In this document: positions 6,001 through 10,593 of the stretch, piece by piece
How positions within the stretch are numbered: position 1 is the stretch's first letter
How the letters are laid out: every line of letters starts with the position of its first letter
Assembly (NCBI GenBank): GCA_050293845.1
Contig: JBNKNM010000198.1
Span: 1 to 10,593 of the forward strand
Direction of reading: 5' to 3'
From: Pseudobacteriovorax sp.
Lineage (GTDB): Bacteria > Bdellovibrionota_B > Oligoflexia > Oligoflexales > Oligoflexaceae
DNA length: 10,593 nt
Position numbers: made by a program

Positions 6001-9000
6001 TCTTAAGGGGGGTACGAGCTCAATTAAGTTATAGGCTAGATCCAAAAACCTCAAGCTAACAAGGTTGCGTAGATTTTTGATATTGACGACTTTATTCTGA
6101 CGAAGGTTTAATGCTCTCAATCCTGGCAATCCAGCGATAGGATCAGGATTCACTATATTAAAATTCTCATTATTGGCAGGATCGGGAGCTAAGGAAAAAA
6201 CTATTTTAGTTTTAAACAGCATATAAGCATCCTCACAATTTTCTTGTGGGGGCCGGTGGTCTTGAGGATAAGGAAGTCGTACACGAATGGCTGCTACAGT
6301 ATTCTGTATGTCCTGTAACCAAGACTCGAAGAACAGCTCATTGGGAAAAAGTTCTTTAAGGTTAATAGCTTCAACATAATCCTCAGCAATGACACAGTAA
6401 TTGTAAAAAGTCCAATATTCTTCGAATTCGTCTGGTGTCGGAACCGGATCTTCTGGAGCAGAGGGGGCTTCACCCTCGCCGTCTCCTTCACCTTCGCCGT
6501 CTCCTTCACCTTCGCCATCTCCTTCTCCTTCTCCTTCTCCTTCTCCTTCTCCTTCGCCATCTCCTTCACCTTCGCCGTCTCCTTCACCTTCAGAAGGTTG
6601 GGGTTCTTGGGGTTGGGGAAAGGCTTCATCGAATTCGTCACCAGCATTGGGAGCTGTGATGGGGCTAGCAATGTCGCCATCTGGAGTTCCTCCCCCATCA
6701 TAGGGATTACCAATGCCAGCATTGGCATTGCTACTGTCAACGGGAGGAGTAGCAGAAAATCCAGGATCTTCCTCTTCGATCATTTCTTCAGTTTTATTGC
6801 ATGCAATGGATAGAGTAAAAAGCACAGCCAGTAGTGTTACAAATATTGTCCGTGGGGTGCGGGATATTAGCATTCATACCTCCTTGTATCCCTCAAAGCG
6901 GGCTAGAAAGCCATAAAAGGGGCTATTTCGAACTTTCAAAAAGAAGAATTCTTGGCTAAATATTGTCATAGTAAAGCTTTAAAAGCTATCATTACCTCAT
7001 AACGCAAAAAGCATGCGTATTGCCATTACGCTGCATAAATCCAGCTAGTTTCCAGCCTTTCCTGCCGTATCTATCTAATACTTGTTCCATTTCTTGATGA
7101 GAATAGTCAAATGTTGGCTCGCAAACGTATTCATATTCCAAAAAGTTTAACAGCTGTTTTCCTGGAATTACAGATCCATCTGCAGTTGCCTCATCCTTTT
7201 CTACTGTGATGCATGACTGTAGAAGAGTCATAAAGAGTATGAAATATATTATCTTCCTGGATCGGTTCATGATTATATCTCCAAAATGCCCTGTTTTAAG
7301 GCCTAAAAAATCCTGAGCACCACGCGACGGTTCTCCGTTTGGTTTTTCGCTATAGGATTTCCATCTTGATCCCGGTTAGGAAGTTCGGGACGGTGCTCTC
7401 CAAACCCCCTAGCTTCGCAGTTCTCCTGGCAGATATCCATAGCCTCCAGGATCTCCAGAACCGCTAGTGATCTCAAGGTCGATAAATGCCAATTCGAACG
7501 GAATTCCTTACTCTCAATCGGATTGTCGTCAGTATGACCTTCTACGGCGAGGTGGGCATAGCTAGGCAGCTTACCGAGCTTTTTGGAAAACTCCTGCAGT
7601 AATTTTTCGGCTTCAGGCTTGACCCTTGCTTTCCCTGAATCAAACAGCAATCCACCTAAGAAACTGATTTGAATACTCTTGTCATCAACTTTAATTTTTA
7701 CCTGATTTTCAAGGTTACTATCCTTCATGTGTTCTTCTAAATCGACAAGAACAGATGCGATACTTTCATCCTCCGTTTTACCCTGAAAGGCTTGTTTGAT
7801 GCGCTCGAATTTAATGGCTGATATGTTGGTCGCTGATATGAGCAAGGCAAAGAAAACTAGTATAATGGTCATCATATCACTATAACTAGTCTGCCATGTT
7901 TCACTACTCGACTTATCGAGTTCTGCAAGAATGTCGAGATGCTTAGGGCTATATTTTTTTGACATCTAAATCTCTCAATCGTGTTTTCATATAAAACGAA
8001 GGCTTTTTCTGTTCGACATGTTCCAACCAGTACAAAAGATTGGTATGACTTTTGATATAAGCTGTTTTGCGCTTCTCAACAGAATGAATCAGTGGTACGA
8101 ACAATATATTACCTATAAATATCCCGTAGAGAGTTGTGATAAGGGCTAGAGACATATTTGAGCCTAGGGTATCAAAGTCTTTTAAATCACCTAATAACCG
8201 AATCAAGCCAAGCAAAGATCCGAACATACCAATGGCTGGAGCCAAAGCAGATATTTGTTTTAAGGTTGCAATATCCTGGTTTAATTTGACGACTACTTTT
8301 TGTATCTGAAATTCTAAAATATCTTTAATATCGTGAATAGGAACATTGATAGCCAGTTTTGTTGCTACGATATTCCAAATTCTAGGCATCTTGCGTCGTT
8401 TCACCTCATTACGGAGTTCCTCACCGCCATCGCTATGGTAAATATCTACAAGACCCTTGAGGTAGGTTTCCGATAACATAATCTGCTTCGATTGCTTATG
8501 GGAAGAGTAGGTAAGACAAAATAAGATGAATCGACGGGCATCGTTGACATCCATTAAGACGATTGAAACCCCCAAGATAACACCTGTGACCATAATAAGC
8601 GAAGGAATATGAATCACTCCCCCGAGTACAGACATATTTTCTACGGCCATACTGTAATATATAGCGGATGCCATCAAAGTGAATCCTAGGGAATTCTTAA
8701 TTAAACTTATCATTGATATTTCTCCAGTTCAGGGCTTAAACGAGGGCTCTGTATGTTTTTAGAATCTCATTTTGAGCTTGTTCGATCTCAGCAGTATTAA
8801 CTTTTACATCCTGCATCTTATAACTATCTATAAGTTGGCTGCGCATATCACCTAGCATTTTTGTCAGTTTTTTATCCATATTATGTTTGGCTAATGCTTT
8901 GCTGAGTACTTCGTTAGATATCCGTTGAAAAACCTTTTTGCCGATACCAATATCTAGTCTCAGAAAATCTTCGAAACTAATCAGGTACTTTTCAAATGCT

Positions 9001-10593
9001 GTGGGGACAGTTCCGTATTGCTGTGCCAGCTTTTTAATAACGTTGACACAATCAGTATCGGAATCAAGAAATAACAATTCCACAGCACTAGGATCAAGCA
9101 CATCGACTACGGCTTCATCTTTAAATTTATCAAATATAGCTCTTAACTTAATATCAAGCTCAGCTTTTAAGGCTCTATGTTCAGATGACATGTCTTCAAT
9201 AGTGCCACTTTCTGCTTGTAAATGCATTCTGCGTAGAAATTTAGCTTTATCTTCTAGTGAGATAACTTTATTGAGCTCTTCCATTTGAACATCACTCAAG
9301 TAAGGTGCAATAACTAGCAGGGTCTCTATGCAATTCGATTCTTTAGTTACTAATTGCGCTATATGGGAACCTGAAAGCTGACCGATGTAACCAAAAGGCT
9401 TCGATTCCACTTCTTCATTCAGGCGTATATATCGCTGGAGGTCACGGATGATCTTATCGAATAAGGCAATGCTGTCAGTTCGAGAAGATTCACTGCTACT
9501 TTCAACCTTTTCCAACGACAATAATTTACGGAAGTAGCTCTTCAAAGCTGGAGTTTGGATAGCGTTATAGAAATTTAGTTTGTCTTCAGTTTTGAGGCTT
9601 TGTAAAAATATTCTGGTGATAAGTGGTGATTGGTTGAGAATATCTACAATCTTATCAAGTTTTTTATTAATAAGTTGAGCATTTTGTTTTTTCTCATTGC
9701 CTGTGTCCATGGGGCTTGAGGGCGGCACATGGGTGTCTTCTTGACTACGTCGTTTAAAGTAAAAGCGTAGCCCAAGAATTGCTGCAATAAATAGCATTAG
9801 CAGTAAAAAGATATAAAATAAATCGATGGCCGATCCAGCTCGGCGATTGACATAGCCTAGTACCCACTCCCAGGGAGAGTCGTAGCTAAGTTGTGGTTCC
9901 AACGCGAGTTCAATCGTATTCAACGTGCCCTTATCACCAAACATTATATCAATCATCTCTTGGGTGGTTATGATGGCTAATTGTTTTTTAGATGAGTCCA
10001 GTGATTTATCAAGTATCAAGCGGACTGATACACTGATGATTTCGGAGCGATCTTTAAAAATAAACCGAGATTTTTCTTTGCGTTTTATCTTTGAAGCCTG
10101 ATCTGGTTTTGATTCTATCTGCTCAAAACCCGGCAAAGTAGCAGATTTTTTTTGAATATCTTGTTCCGATGAATCGTTCTCAAGTTCTCCTTCCAGGACG
10201 ACTTTTTCACGAAAGTTCTTCAATTGAGCATTAGCAAATATACGATAGGATTTTTCACTTAAAAATAGGTTAATGTCGTCAGTAATTTTCTGTAAAAACC
10301 TTTCTTCAATCGATTGCGAAGTTTGAACGTTTGAGTTTTTGATTTCCCTGGCTATGGCGGGTGACATCGCCAGTAAAATGAATATCGAGAAAATAATTTC
10401 TATTTTTCGAATATTACCTATCATGACCTTGTATCCCTAGTTAGTTTCTAAAAATTTTTCTTCACATTTTCATTCTGCCGTTTTCTCGCTTGCATGATTT
10501 TCTGAACTTGGCTCTTCAGAGTTTTTTGCCCCTTAATGACTGCGAGAATTTCTGGCTGGTCGGGATTTTGAGCTAAGGATTCCATCCATACTT

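What a model noticed while it worked through the whole genome (the two positions that open the first line are those of the whole stretch)
7303..10424. Membrane-anchored FliG(middle+C)-like protein encoded with its own MotA/MotB, away from flagellar genes
Two three-gene modules (C198:7303-10424 and C98:1404-4532) encode a protein of about 560 aa followed by MotA and MotB. That protein has an N-terminal hydrophobic segment in most members, a periplasmic part, a transmembrane helix in all, and a cytoplasmic C-terminus homologous to the FliG middle and C-terminal (torque) domains. This looks like a minimal rotor-stator pair separate from the flagellum. A third protein of the same build (777 aa) is at C18:38089-40422.
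Evidence so far: - FliG_C hits genome-wide. - A profile of 8 homologs hits only FliG chains in the PDB, the best being 1lkv at E 3.5e-15 over positions 349-552 to residues 3-209. - A transmembrane helix at about residues 192-237 occurs in all 8, and there is an invariant Arg aligned to the FliG helix. - MotA_ExbB, MotB_plug and OmpA are confirmed on the neighbours. - MotA and MotB lie directly downstream in 7 of 8 loci. - Full-length homologs occur in 10 of 131 genomes of the phylum, G000 included. - Neighbouring genes are not flagellar. FlhA lies elsewhere, on C48.
(Added by a program. Inside this text positions count along the whole contig: contig position 1 is position 1 of the stretch shown here. 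"Call 12" and the like, gene names such as g00115 and contig names such as C1 are that model's own, and its searches are not shown. The text may have been shortened before it was handed on; [...] marks where a part breaks off. The agent that wrote the report below was given it as the finding of a first reader that could run no searches.)

Follow-up and report, generated by a model that had tools for sequence, protein, structure and literature searches.

The report
Mini rotary motor outside the flagellum
This operon encodes one membrane protein that joins a piece of the flagellar ring protein FliF to the torque-receiving part of FliG, followed by its own MotA/MotB proton-driven stator; the same set also occurs in relatives that have no flagellar genes, so it looks like a stripped-down flagellar-type motor put to another, still unknown, use in the cell envelope.

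Summary
Window 7303-10424 (minus strand) holds a 562-aa membrane protein, a MotA and a MotB.

- **FliG part.** The single-sequence FliG_C hit is marginal (24.8 bits). A profile of 33 close family members hits FliG 1lkv at E 3e-20, and 111 members give 2.3e-36. hhalign against canonical FliG gives probability 99.1.
- **FliF part (new).** The protein is therefore a natural mini FliF-FliG fusion.
- **Stator.** It is flagellar-type (plug, OmpA-like domain, channel Asp). Both sides of the classical charge interface have changed: only the Arg that appears to match FliG R281 is kept (105 of 111).
- **Cluster.** The trio sits in a conserved cluster whose other products are all exported: an outer-membrane barrel protein, a TPR protein, lipoproteins and a pentapeptide-repeat protein. 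Contig C269 holds the missing upstream half.
- **Independence from flagella.** G018 (93% complete) and G010 (84%) carry the module but no FlhA, flagellin, FliF, FliM/N or canonical FliG.

Best reading: a flagellum-independent rotor-stator engine acting on the envelope. Ring formation, rotation and function are untested. I found no description of it in print.

The parts
10448..10593 (-). Last 47 codons of the periplasmic TPR protein gene (family F4), cut by the contig end. The rest of the gene, and the upstream half of the cluster, lie on G000 contig C269.
   Evidence: An open frame runs off the window end. Its tail VWMESLAQNPDQPEI matches the TPR tail of the syntenic locus L042. tblastn places the TPR, U, F6, F7 and two further cluster proteins on C269.
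8736..10424 (-). 562-aa FliF(RBM3)-TM-FliG(M+C) fusion-like membrane protein, the putative rotor subunit.
   Evidence: The family has 132 representatives at E <= 1e-3 among 1.84 billion proteins.
10344..10424 (-). Residues 1-27: N-terminal hydrophobic helix with an AIA-RE motif. It is a probable Sec signal peptide or an uncleaved anchor.
   Evidence: Sequence. AF2 helix 3-27. Present in 105 of 111 members. Cleavage is inferred only.
9900..10331 (-). Residues 32-175: periplasmic alpha-beta-beta-alpha-beta domain like FliF RBM3/collar. A low-confidence loop (residues 77-120) carries the near-invariant L-P-G-F motif (P98, G99, F100).
   Evidence: AF2 secondary-structure elements. VIA aligns model 32-175 to Salmonella FliF 233-437 with Z 11.4-11.7, rmsd 2.4 A over 90 residues and 19% identity. 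Foldseek hits FliF entries with E from 1.7e-5 (9a67_A) to about 1e-3 (6sd1_A 1.4e-3). The 111-sequence profile hits FliF 6scn_A at E 4e-5 and 12dr_A at E 5e-4.
9753..9830 (-). Residues 199-224: transmembrane helix followed by RFYFKRR (positive-inside).
8739..9398 (-). Residues 343-562: FliG middle + C-terminal (torque) domains.
   Evidence: PDB profile hits. hhalign probability 99.1, E 6.7e-19. VIA Z about 12 to FliG 105-318. Pfam FliG_C in 26 of 33 close and 72 of 78 distant members, and FliG_M in 7 of 33 and 52 of 78.
8841..8843 (-). Codon of Arg528, near-invariant in the family. It aligns with the Arg of the FliG torque helix (the 'MSkRaa' motif).
   Evidence: The equivalence to E. coli R281 rests on my recall of the E. 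coli motif and on the residue offsets.
7949..8713 (-). 254-aa MotA-type stator A subunit, with a cytoplasmic domain of about 95 aa between TM2 and TM3.
   Evidence: Pfam 70.1 bits. NCBIfam best hits are MotP/MotA/PomA, all far below their equivalog cut-offs. The best PDB hit is Aquifex MotA 8gqy, E 1.6e-17, and only flagellar stators are listed. In the tree, MotA-type splits from Exb/Tol-type with 100/100 support, and 11 of 12 cluster MotAs group with 90/97.
7303..7965 (-). 220-aa MotB-type stator B subunit: TM helix with the channel Asp (SYSDMMT), a plug and an OmpA-like peptidoglycan-binding domain.
   Evidence: Pfam MotB_plug 42.6 bits and OmpA 43.7 bits. B. subtilis MotB 6ysl, E 1.5e-27, with the Asp column aligned.
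6992..7270 (-). 92-aa lipoprotein (LLQSC lipobox) with weak DUF4177 likeness, cluster family F9.
   Evidence: It lies directly after MotB in the 4 loci that hold an F9 member.
5695..6873 (-). 392-aa leucine-rich-repeat lipoprotein with an acidic (GEGD)n linker, cluster family F8.
   Evidence: Family F8 has members in 4 loci.

Best explanation
This is a flagellum-independent rotor-stator module.

The rotor protein. The 562-aa protein is a natural, shortened FliF-FliG fusion. It consists of an N-terminal signal or anchor, one periplasmic FliF-type ring-building domain (RBM3 with a shortened collar loop), one TM helix, a helical linker, and then the FliG middle and C-terminal domains in the cytoplasm. 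I infer that copies assemble through the RBM3 domain into an inner-membrane ring that displays a crown of FliG_C torque helices.

The stator. The co-transcribed MotA/MotB pair is a flagellar-type, peptidoglycan-anchored, proton- or ion-driven 5:2 stator. Its MotA cytoplasmic domain would push on that crown.

What is missing. There is no export gate, rod, or FliM/FliN switch.

The output. Work would go to the products of the conserved neighbours, all of which are exported. They are an outer-membrane 8-stranded barrel with a periplasmic LpoB/TolB-N-like domain (U), a periplasmic TPR protein, small and LRR lipoproteins, an OmpA-like protein and a pentapeptide-repeat lipoprotein. The most likely use is to move or remodel something in the outer envelope, such as surface adhesins, surface motility, or envelope maintenance.

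Shown versus inferred.
- Shown: the homologies, the topology, the gene order, and occurrence without flagellar genes.
- Inferred: ring assembly, the stator-rotor contact, rotation and the output.
For: 1. FliG M+C homology. The 33-member profile hits 1lkv at E 3e-20 and the 111-member profile at 2.3e-36. hhalign against 13 canonical FliG of the phylum gives probability 99.1, E 6.7e-19, family 279-561 to FliG 78-328. The same profile finds canonical FliG ORFs of about 330-345 aa in most genomes of the phylum over positions 349-554.

2. Structure. The AF2 model has mean pLDDT 86.7. Model 343-562 aligns to FliG 105-318 at Z about 12. FliG_C bound to a stator (8ucs_H) superposes at rmsd 1.7 A over 80 residues. 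Model 32-175 aligns to FliF 233-437 at Z 11.4-11.7, rmsd 2.4 A, 19% identity. The next unrelated folds (OsmC, MamM) score Z about 9 at 5-9% identity. Foldseek lists FliF entries with E from 1.7e-5 (9a67_A) to about 1e-3 (6sd1_A 1.4e-3). Sequence profile hits to FliF are E 4e-5 and 5e-4. One distant member (P0131) carries Pfam YscJ_FliF_C plus FliG_N, FliG_M and FliG_C.

3. Topology fits FliF-TM2-FliG.

4. Stator. It is flagellar-type by PDB hits, by plug plus OmpA-like domain, and by the tree. PMC12505986 (passages read) names plug+linker and an OmpA-like domain as marks of flagellar stators.

5. Linkage. MotA-MotB lie directly downstream in 10 of 13 loci and inside the cluster in 1 more. U-TPR lie directly upstream in 9 of 13.

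6. Independence from flagella. G018 (93% complete) and G010 (84%) have the module but no FlhA, flagellin, FliF or FliM/N and no canonical FliG. G018 has only 3 MotA_ExbB genes, one of them in the cluster.

7. A private interface. In the family the Arg matching the torque-helix Arg is kept in 105 of 111. The acidic pair seven to eight residues on is replaced by Q/L/M and L/I/M/K. The EHPQ FliM-binding motif is lost, with only the E kept in 51 of 111. In the 12 cluster MotAs, the two positions aligned with the Aquifex R/E pair are Y/H/A/I and R/A/S/D/T.

8. Envelope partners. All accessory products carry signal peptides or lipoboxes. U residues 175-333 form an 8-stranded outer-membrane barrel (NspA Z 16.2, OprF Z 16.0, OmpA Z 15.5). 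U residues 32-171 resemble the LpoB C-domain (Z 9.6).
Against: - No experiment exists. Ring formation, stator binding and rotation are inferred from homology alone.
- The window protein on its own is only marginally FliG-like (24.8 bits). PDB searches with the single sequence or a 5-sequence profile found nothing, so the case rests on family profiles and a predicted model.
- The canonical charge pairs of the MotA-FliG interface are not conserved on either side. That could mean a different interface, or no torque-type contact at all.
- Only one of FliF's three ring-building motifs is present, and the collar is reduced to a 44-residue, low-confidence loop.
- Two of 13 loci lack adjacent MotAB.
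- The aflagellate genomes are MAGs. G035 (77% complete) shows that a single marker (FlhA) can be missing from a clearly flagellated MAG.
- Distribution is patchy: 10 of 131 genomes, and absent from the same-genus genome G056.
- No RNA data were found.
Confidence: 0.55

Rival explanations
1. A non-rotary, Tol-Pal/TonB-style envelope energiser. The MotAB unit turns, but the FliF/FliG-like protein acts as a single or small-oligomer adaptor, a TolA/TonB analogue grabbed through its cytoplasmic FliG_C domain. It passes force or a conformational signal to the outer-membrane barrel U, the TPR protein and the OmpA-like lipoprotein. No closed rotor ring is needed.
For: - The cluster make-up recalls tol-pal. 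It has an A/B motor pair, an inner-membrane protein reaching into the periplasm, a protein with a TolB-N/LpoB-like domain, a TPR protein, and a protein with a weak OmpA hit (20.9 bits, cut-off 27.2).
- The classical torque charge pairs are not conserved.
- Only one RBM is present.
Against: - Known Tol/Ton adaptors couple to the A subunit inside the membrane, not through a FliG_C fold (general knowledge).
- FliG_C is known only as a ring-displayed torque receiver. RBM3 is a ring-building module in every solved case listed (33- to 35-mer FliF rings).
- The stator has the flagellar plug and OmpA-type anchor rather than TolR/ExbD. ExbD scores only 16.2 bits against a cut-off of 25.4, and tolQ 25 bits against 221.
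- G000 has a separate ExbB/TolQ-ExbD-TonB_2-PD40 (Tol-Pal-like) gene row on C30.
Confidence: 0.25
2. An accessory part of the flagellar motor encoded apart from it. One possibility is an extra membrane ring that recruits additional or alternative stators to the flagellar basal body. Another is a decoy that titrates stators.
For: - G000 is flagellated: FliF on C169, two FliG, 11 flagellin matches, FlhA on C48.
- At least 8 of the 10 genomes with the family also have canonical FliG.
- All the parts are flagellar homologues.
- Stators in this genome are generally encoded away from flagellar genes.
Against: - The module is present in G018 and G010, which lack all five flagellar markers tested.
- The FliM-binding EHPQ motif and the FliG N-domain are missing.
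- The interface residues on both partners differ from the flagellar ones.
- The conserved neighbours are exported non-flagellar proteins.
- G000 holds two complete paralogous clusters and a third, partly held module on C80.
Confidence: 0.08
3. A Zorya-like anti-phage defence system built on a MotAB-type motor.
For: MotB matches the PADLOC ZorB models (best E 2.5e-21). These models are annotated simply as MotB.
Against: - There is no ZorA hit for the MotA, and no hit for the 562-aa protein or for 7 of the other 8 cluster proteins scanned.
- The MotA is 254 aa and has no long C-terminal tail.
- No nuclease or helicase gene was found by Pfam in the cluster.
- All partners are exported envelope proteins.
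Confidence: 0.02

Closest known systems
Flagellar rotor core FliF (MS-ring) + FliG (top of the C-ring) with MotA5B2 stators
   Same: - The RBM3/collar fold, a TM helix, and then FliG M and C domains in the same order as FliF then FliG.
- The torque-helix Arg.
- MotA with a large cytoplasmic domain.
- MotB with the channel Asp, a plug and an OmpA-like anchor.
   Different: - One polypeptide of about 560 aa instead of about 560 + 330 aa.
- No RBM1 or RBM2, and no hit to Pfam YscJ_FliF in this protein.
- The collar is cut down to a 44-residue loop.
- FliG_N is not detected.
- The EHPQ FliM site and the acidic pair are lost, and the MotA R/E pair is lost.
- No export gate, rod, hook or switch genes are nearby.
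- It occurs in genomes without flagellar genes.
Laboratory FliF-FliG full-length fusions of Salmonella and Vibrio
   Same: A covalent FliF-FliG fusion is compatible with ring assembly. These papers were seen only as titles and abstracts in search listings: PMC6079021, and PMC10941966 and PMC11481574.
   Different: Those are engineered head-to-tail fusions of complete proteins working inside a flagellum. This one is natural, lacks about 300 residues of FliF and the FliG N-domain, and has its own stator and non-flagellar partners.
Tol-Pal and ExbBD-TonB envelope energisers
   Same: - An ion-driven A/B motor encoded next to an inner-membrane transducer.
- Periplasmic TPR and TolB-N-like parts, and an OmpA-like protein.
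- Output to the outer membrane.
   Different: - The B subunit is MotB-type with a plug, not TolR/ExbD.
- The transducer carries a FliG torque domain and a ring-building motif instead of a TolA/TonB rod.
GldLM (Bacteroidota gliding/T9SS) and AglRQS-Glt (Myxococcus gliding) motors
   Same: A non-flagellar use of a 5:2-type motor to drive outer-envelope or surface proteins, with many lipoprotein and TPR partners. This is general knowledge; AglRS is mentioned in PMC12505986.
   Different: Those motors belong to the Exb/Tol-like ('generic') branch and have no FliG or FliF homologue. Here both the stator and its target are of flagellar type.
MgtE N-terminal domain
   Same: It shares the FliG-like armadillo-type helical repeat. 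MgtE_N Pfam hits occur in 10 of 33 close members, and weak PDB hits to MgtE at E 1.2e-3.
   Different: There is no MgtE channel or CBS domain, and the FliG hits are stronger by more than 30 orders of magnitude.

Membership tests
FliG (flagellar rotor/switch protein) | Homology to the FliG middle and C-terminal domains | tested here: met
   Profile hits to 1lkv at E 3e-20 and 2.3e-36. hhalign probability 99.1. VIA Z about 12 and FliG_C rmsd 1.9 A.
FliG (flagellar rotor/switch protein) | EHPQR motif of FliG_M that docks FliM | tested here: not met
   The canonical FliG of the phylum keep NEHPQT. In the family only the E is common (51 of 111), and H, P and Q are not kept.
FliG (flagellar rotor/switch protein) | Charged torque helix: Arg plus an acidic pair facing MotA | tested here: inconclusive
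   The Arg is kept in 105 of 111. The positions seven and eight residues after it are Q/L/M and L/I/M/K, not acidic. The E. coli numbering is taken from PMC12505986 and from recall.
FliG (flagellar rotor/switch protein) | N-terminal domain that binds the FliF C-terminal tail; a soluble protein | tested here: not met
   hhalign covers only FliG 78-328. FliG_N Pfam hits occur in 1 of 33 close members and 7 of 78 distant ones. The protein is membrane-anchored.
FliF (MS-ring protein) | RBM3/collar ring-building domain followed by TM2 | tested here: met
   VIA aligns model 32-175 to FliF 233-437 at Z 11.4-11.7, rmsd 2.4 A. Foldseek lists FliF entries with E from 1.7e-5 (9a67_A) to about 1e-3 (6sd1_A 1.4e-3). 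The profile hits FliF 404-522 at E 4e-5.
FliF (MS-ring protein) | RBM1 and RBM2 (Pfam YscJ_FliF) that house the export gate | tested here: not met
   There is no YscJ_FliF hit in the protein. The only genomic hit is the true FliF on C169. The periplasmic part is only about 170 aa.
FliF (MS-ring protein) | Assembly into a ring of about 33-35 subunits | not testable with these tools
   This needs purification with cryo-EM, or cryo-ET.
Flagellar-type MotA/MotB stator ('FIT' of PMC12505986) | MotA with four TM helices and a large cytoplasmic domain between TM2 and TM3; MotA_ExbB channel core | tested here: met
   The tree splits MotA-type from Exb/Tol-type with 100/100 support.
Flagellar-type MotA/MotB stator ('FIT' of PMC12505986) | MotB with the channel Asp, a plug and an OmpA-like peptidoglycan-binding domain | tested here: met
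   The feature list is taken from passages of PMC12505986.
Flagellar-type MotA/MotB stator ('FIT' of PMC12505986) | Conserved MotA Arg/Glu pair (E. coli R90/E98) facing FliG | tested here: not met
   The aligned positions are Y/H/A/I and R/A/S/D/T in the 12 cluster MotAs. The equivalence goes through Aquifex MotA and recall of the motif.
Flagellar-type MotA/MotB stator ('FIT' of PMC12505986) | Works on a flagellum | tested here: not met
   The module is present in G018 and G010, which lack the flagellar markers. All NCBIfam equivalog scores are far below cut-off, for example MotP 67 bits against 394.
Zorya (ZorAB-based defence) | ZorA with a long tail plus ZorC/D or ZorE-type effectors | tested here: not met
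   PADLOC gives ZorB-model hits for MotB only, and nothing for MotA or the 562-aa protein.
Tol-Pal / ExbBD | TolR/ExbD-type B subunit and TolQ/ExbB-type A subunit | tested here: not met
   ExbD scores 16.2 bits against a cut-off of 25.4. tolQ scores 25.4 bits against 221. The cluster MotAs fall on the MotA side of the tree.

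The most novel reading that the evidence does not exclude
A self-contained rotary engine made of one rotor protein (FliF-RBM3 ring + FliG torque crown) and MotAB. It has no secretion system, rod or switch. It turns in the inner membrane and drives an envelope-spanning set of outer-membrane barrel, TPR and lipoprotein partners, for example to move surface adhesins for gliding or to work the outer membrane. 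It would be the first non-flagellar machine known to use the flagellar rotor-stator pair. It would be either a descendant of the flagellar motor or a surviving relative of the pre-flagellar 'ring plus stator' stage.
Probability: 0.3. Interest if true: 0.95.

Novelty: new variant of a known kind. Interest (0 to 1): 0.82.

Why it matters
- **Current view.** To my knowledge, FliG and FliF are known only from flagella, and FliF's relatives from injectisomes and the sporulation channel. Flagellar-type MotAB stators are treated as markers of flagellar motility: PMC12505986 (passages read) defines a 'flagellar' stator clade.
- **What would change.** A conserved module that keeps just the ring-building motif, the torque domain and the stator, and that persists in genomes without flagella, would show that the rotor-stator pair is a portable engine separable from type III secretion.
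- **The origin question.** It bears on how the flagellar motor arose, in particular whether rotation could exist before, or apart from, the export apparatus.
- **A tractable model.** A roughly 560-aa rotor subunit with one stator is a far simpler system than the flagellum for studying torque generation structurally.
- **An orthogonal interface.** The rewired charge interface suggests a natural rotor-stator pair orthogonal to the flagellar one.
- **New biology.** The function itself may reveal a new kind of envelope or surface movement in Bdellovibrionota-related bacteria.

Tried and rejected
- **Single sequence and 5-sequence profile against PDB.** No FliG hit. Deeper profiles were needed.
- **Complex prediction.** Four copies of the periplasmic domain (residues 30-182, alignment A2) gave 'no answer' (score 0.28, mark 0.42). 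This is no evidence either way.
- **The search for related loci.**
  - With A1 on genome contigs it returned 1 locus, a Pseudobacteriovorax antillogorgiicola MAG.
  - With A6 on metagenome contigs it returned 1 locus.
  - As a result, gene neighbourhoods outside this phylum could not be examined.
- **Pfam on all 111 members in one call.** It was done as 33 + 78 members instead.
- **Sequencing runs.** No RNA holder is listed. There are 5 DNA holders from 2 studies.
- **Promoter and terminator scan of 5400-10593.** Counts were at or below chance: 8 against 11.9 expected, and 5 against 4.5.
- **Cluster names.** All ten looked-up representatives are singletons. One is named 'hypothetical protein', one 'flagellar motor switch protein FliG', and the other eight carry no name.
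- **Protein U.** No Pfam hit and no PDB sequence hit. Only the predicted fold was informative.
- **Literature.** Five full-text searches listed no paper on a natural membrane-anchored FliF/FliG-like protein with its own MotAB outside flagella. Only titles and abstracts of the listings were seen, plus passages of PMC12505986. Subscription-only papers are not covered.
- **ESM Atlas.** It points to related unnamed clusters with FliG_C, FliG_M or YscJ_FliF_C in Bdellovibrionota, Myxococcota, Pseudomonadota, Balneolota and Elusimicrobiota. These are leads only and were not followed.
- **Chance or artefact.** Rejected: the family has 132 representatives, a conserved architecture and conserved synteny.

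Full report
**What is in the window.** The window is the whole of contig C198 of a 6.68-Mb, 741-contig assembly that is 96% complete. On the minus strand lies a tight row of genes:
- a 47-codon tail of a gene cut by the contig end (10448-10593);
- a 562-aa ORF (8736-10424);
- a 254-aa ORF (7949-8713);
- a 220-aa ORF (7303-7965, overlapping the previous one by 17 nt);
- a 92-aa ORF (6992-7270);
- a 392-aa ORF (5695-6873).

Pfam gives the following:
- FliG_C at 24.8 bits (cut-off 23.3) on residues 474-561 of the first ORF;
- MotA_ExbB at 70.1 bits on the second;
- MotB_plug at 42.6 bits and OmpA at 43.7 bits on the third;
- a weak DUF4177 hit on the fourth;
- LRR hits on the fifth.

The 27-bit FliG_C score belongs to a third, truncated module on C80, not to the C98 protein, which has no Pfam hit at E <= 0.01. 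The C98 protein is nonetheless a full-length homologue of the window protein (22% identity, E 3e-17).

**Is the FliG likeness real?** The single sequence and a 5-sequence profile found no FliG in the PDB. An exhaustive HMMER search of 1.84 billion representatives with that profile found 132 proteins at E <= 1e-3 (84 at <= 1e-10). Almost all are 500-700 aa long, and no ordinary FliG is among them.

Profiles built from these members settle the question.
- The 33 closest members hit T. maritima FliG 1lkv at E 3e-20 over profile 344-554 to chain 3-213.
- All 111 full-length members give E 2.3e-36.
- hhalign against 13 canonical FliG proteins of the phylum gives probability 99.1, E 6.7e-19, family 279-561 to FliG 78-328.
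- Run over 131 genomes of the phylum, the same profile picks up the canonical FliG ORFs of about 330-345 aa over positions 349-554.
- Member by member, FliG_C is found in 26 of 33 close and 72 of 78 distant members. FliG_M is found in 7 of 33 and 52 of 78.

**The periplasmic domain is FliF-like.** An AlphaFold2 model built on the 111-sequence alignment has mean pLDDT 86.7. Its elements, in order, are:
- an N-terminal helix (3-27);
- an alpha-beta-beta-alpha-beta domain (helix 36-51, strands 60-76 and 121-139, helix 144-165, strand 166-173), with a low-confidence loop at 77-120;
- a TM helix (199-224);
- an all-helical cytoplasmic part.

Foldseek's top hits are FliF and FliG entries only. VIA-align matches model 32-175 to Salmonella FliF 233-437, the RBM3/collar region that builds the S-ring. 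The scores are Z 11.4-11.7, rmsd 2.4 A over 90 residues and 19% identity. The next unrelated alpha/beta folds (OsmC, MamM) score Z about 9 at 5-9% identity.

Sequence agrees weakly. The 111-member profile hits FliF 6scn_A at E 4e-5 (profile 133-253 to FliF 404-522) and 12dr_A at E 5e-4 (profile 26-70 to FliF 245-288). One distant member carries Pfam YscJ_FliF_C together with FliG_N, M and C. Model 343-562 matches FliG 105-318 at Z about 12. The stator-bound FliG_C of 8ucs superposes at 1.7 A over 80 residues.

The protein is therefore a natural, shortened FliF-FliG fusion: RBM3, TM helix, linker, FliG M + C.
- RBM1 and RBM2 are absent. There is no YscJ_FliF hit, and the only one in the genome is the true FliF on C169.
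- A FliG N-domain is not detected. That makes sense if the covalent link replaces the FliF-tail/FliG_N contact, though this is inference.
- Across the family, an N-terminal hydrophobic stretch occurs in 105 of 111, the central TM helix in 106 of 111, and positive charge just after it in 99 of 106.
- Near-invariant residues are P98-G99-F100 in the periplasmic loop, F344-G345, N504 and R528.

**The stator.** MotA's PDB hits at E <= 0.01 are nine flagellar MotA/PomA sequences and nothing else, with Aquifex 8gqy best at 1.6e-17. MotB hits B. subtilis MotB at 1.5e-27, with the channel Asp column aligned (SYSDMMT against YADILT). NCBIfam ranks MotP, MotA and PomA first but far below the equivalog cut-offs.

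A maximum-likelihood tree was built from the 16 MotA/ExbB homologues of G000 plus 9 cluster MotAs from other genomes. It splits MotA-type from Exb/Tol-type with 100/100 support. It groups 11 of the 12 cluster MotAs together with 90/97. The C80 copy is unresolved on a long branch.

By the criteria quoted from PMC12505986 (plug + linker and an OmpA-like domain mark the flagellar clade; passages read), this is a flagellar-type stator.

**A rewired interface.** In canonical FliG of this phylum, the motifs NEHPQT, MFVFDDL and MSERAA..LRED...GP.K are intact.

In the family:
- the Arg aligned with MSeR is kept in 105 of 111, often followed by R or K;
- the positions aligned with the acidic pair are Q/L/M and L/I/M/K;
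- of the EHPQ motif, only the E is common (51 of 111).

In the 12 cluster MotAs, the two positions that align with the R...E pair of Aquifex MotA are Y/H/A/I and R/A/S/D/T. Y92 and D128-I129 are near-invariant.

The equivalence to E. coli R90/E98 and R281/D288/D289 rests on the pairs quoted in PMC12505986, on my recall of the E. coli motifs, and on the residue offsets. It was not tested by a direct alignment.

My reading is that the pair has its own interface, has no FliM docking site and so no switch, and is probably orthogonal to the flagellar rotor in the same cell. The same data could also mean that the contact is not of the torque type. I list that as evidence against.

**The neighbourhood.** I collected 13 loci with a full-length family member: 3 from G000 and G010 paralogues, the rest from 8 other genomes of the phylum and 1 metagenome contig. 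I grouped their ORFs by BLAST.
- MotA-MotB follow directly in 10 of 13 loci. They lie divergently inside the cluster in 1 (L051) and are absent in 2 (L045, L050).
- A protein of about 345 aa (U) and a TPR protein of about 190 aa precede the rotor gene directly in 9 of 13. In L048 they are two genes away. L050 keeps the TPR gene and then ends. The window and L052 are cut at that point.

The window's 47-codon tail is the end of that TPR gene. The missing half of the cluster is on G000 contig C269. It holds the TPR gene (cut), then U, then, divergently, a 341-aa protein, a 318-aa protein (F6), a 652-aa pentapeptide-repeat protein (F7) and a 315-aa coiled-coil protein.

Downstream of MotB come a small DUF4177-like lipoprotein (4 loci) and either an LRR lipoprotein (F8) or an OmpA-like protein (F6). 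Every one of these products has a signal peptide or a lipobox.

U has no Pfam or PDB sequence hit. Its AF2 model (pLDDT 83.2) shows two domains. The C-terminal one is an 8-stranded outer-membrane barrel (residues 175-333; NspA Z 16.2, OprF barrel Z 16.0, OmpA Z 15.5, rmsd about 2 A). The N-terminal one is an LpoB-C/TolB-N-like domain (Z 9.6).

The module is thus the inner-membrane and energy part of an envelope-spanning set. Apart from the FliG-like domain itself, none of the conserved cluster products looks cytoplasmic.

**Is it part of the flagellum?** G000 is flagellated: FliF on C169, FlhA on C48, 11 flagellin matches and two canonical FliG. It holds nine MotAB-type loci. None of the six non-cluster ones shows a flagellar family among its Pfam-scanned neighbours, so distance from flagellar genes proves little here.

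The decisive point is different. G018 (93% complete; cluster U-TPR-rotor-MotA-MotB) and G010 (84%; two copies) have no match to FlhA, flagellin, FliF or FliM/N. In both, the only matches to the family profile are the family members themselves, with no canonical FliG.

There is a caveat. These are MAGs, and G035 (77% complete) lacks an FlhA match although it clearly has flagellin, FliF and FliM/N. One missing marker therefore means little, but five missing together in a 93%-complete genome is hard to put down to gaps.

The family is patchy. It has full-length copies in 10 of 131 genomes and fragments or a broken copy in G005 and G008. It is absent from the same-genus genome G056. The nearest named relative is a Pseudobacteriovorax antillogorgiicola MAG.

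**Mechanism proposed.**
- Shown: homology of the three proteins to FliF-RBM3/FliG, MotA and MotB; topology; conserved operon; exported partners; occurrence without flagellar genes.
- Inferred: (i) RBM3 drives ring assembly, as in every solved FliF structure matched; (ii) the ring displays FliG_C domains to MotA5B2 units anchored to peptidoglycan by MotB; (iii) ion flow turns the ring; (iv) the periplasmic face, including the invariant LPGF loop that replaces the collar, couples to the TPR protein, the outer-membrane barrel U and the lipoproteins.

I put about 0.55 on this reading. I put about 0.25 on a non-ring, Tol/Ton-like force transducer that uses the same parts, about 0.08 on a flagellar accessory, and about 0.02 on a Zorya-like defence system. 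For the last, PADLOC hits only the generic MotB models.

**Novelty.** Five full-text searches (listings only) and passages of the 2025 MotAB phylogeny paper turned up no description of such a module. Sources name one of the ten looked-up proteins 'hypothetical protein' and one 'flagellar motor switch protein FliG', and give the rest no name. The parts belong to known families, so I rate it a new variant of a known kind. If the ring turns and drives an envelope function, it would be a new kind of machine.

**What did not work.**
- The complex prediction of four periplasmic domains gave no answer.
- Collection scans returned only one locus each, so contexts in other phyla are unknown.
- No RNA run was listed.
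- Promoter and terminator scans were at chance.

Noticed in passing
G000 contig C80 (L010:1-7451): A third, more divergent module. A FliG_C-bearing membrane protein (27 bits) is cut by the contig end. It is preceded by a TPR protein and four unknown proteins (312, 371, 185 and 274 aa). A divergent MotA-MotB-PEGA-domain gene row lies next to it. The family profile matches the membrane protein at E 2.8e-9.
   Followed up: partly
G000 contig C18 (L009:8090-10423, minus): A 777-aa protein with an N-terminal hydrophobic start, a TM helix, and clear FliG_M + FliG_C domains (3hjl E 5.5e-14). It has no adjacent MotAB. It lies about 2.4 kb from a pilMNOPQ row and next to a cNMP-binding protein. Proteins of similar build (767-894 aa) occur in G065, G073 and G105.
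   Followed up: partly
G000 contigs C84, C70, C8, C2, C102, C159 (L054-L059): Six further MotA + MotB(plug) loci bring the genome to nine MotAB-type stator loci. None shows a flagellar family among its Pfam-scanned neighbours. C8 reads TPR-MotA-MotB-569 aa unknown-184 aa. C70 has a 355-aa unknown gene before MotA. C102 has one MotA and two MotB genes.
   Followed up: no
window 8736-10424, residues 97-100: An L-P-G-F motif (G99 invariant; P98 and F100 kept in at least 90% of 111 members) sits in the low-confidence periplasmic loop that stands where FliF has its collar. No explanation was found. It may be a partner-binding or membrane-touching tip.
   Followed up: no
L053:496-1497 (protein U of G000) and alignment A9: Two invariant cysteines three residues apart (C97 and C100, CxxC-like) lie in the periplasmic N-domain of the outer-membrane barrel protein U.
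   Followed up: no
window 3008-3601 (minus): An M23 peptidase with a signal peptide lies downstream of the cluster. An M23 peptidase gene also follows the LRR lipoprotein gene in the syntenic locus L042. It may be a peptidoglycan-remodelling helper, but it is seen in only 2 loci.
   Followed up: no
window 5695-6873 (minus), with a shadow ORF at 6294-6740: The LRR lipoprotein has a long acidic (GEGD)n repeat between the lipobox and the LRR domain. The 148-aa ORF listed inside it, on the same strand in another frame, is probably a by-product of the repeat.
   Followed up: no
window 53-2513 (minus): A row of envelope-sugar genes: a HAD-like/GT2 glycosyltransferase, a membrane protein of the LPG_synthase_TM type, and a 262-aa protein with no Pfam hit. 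GC drops to about 0.30-0.32 here, against 0.38-0.45 in the motor cluster.
   Followed up: no
G008:C101:2631-4200 (L022): A family member that appears broken. The N-terminal and C-terminal parts match separately, with one TGA and one TAA inside the first match.
   Followed up: no
G000 contig C98 against C198+C269: G000 carries two complete paralogous clusters, with 22-33% identity between their rotor, U, TPR and F6 proteins. Each has a closer orthologue in another genome: L047/G074 for C98 and L042/G035 for C198. This points to an old duplication or separate acquisitions.
   Followed up: partly
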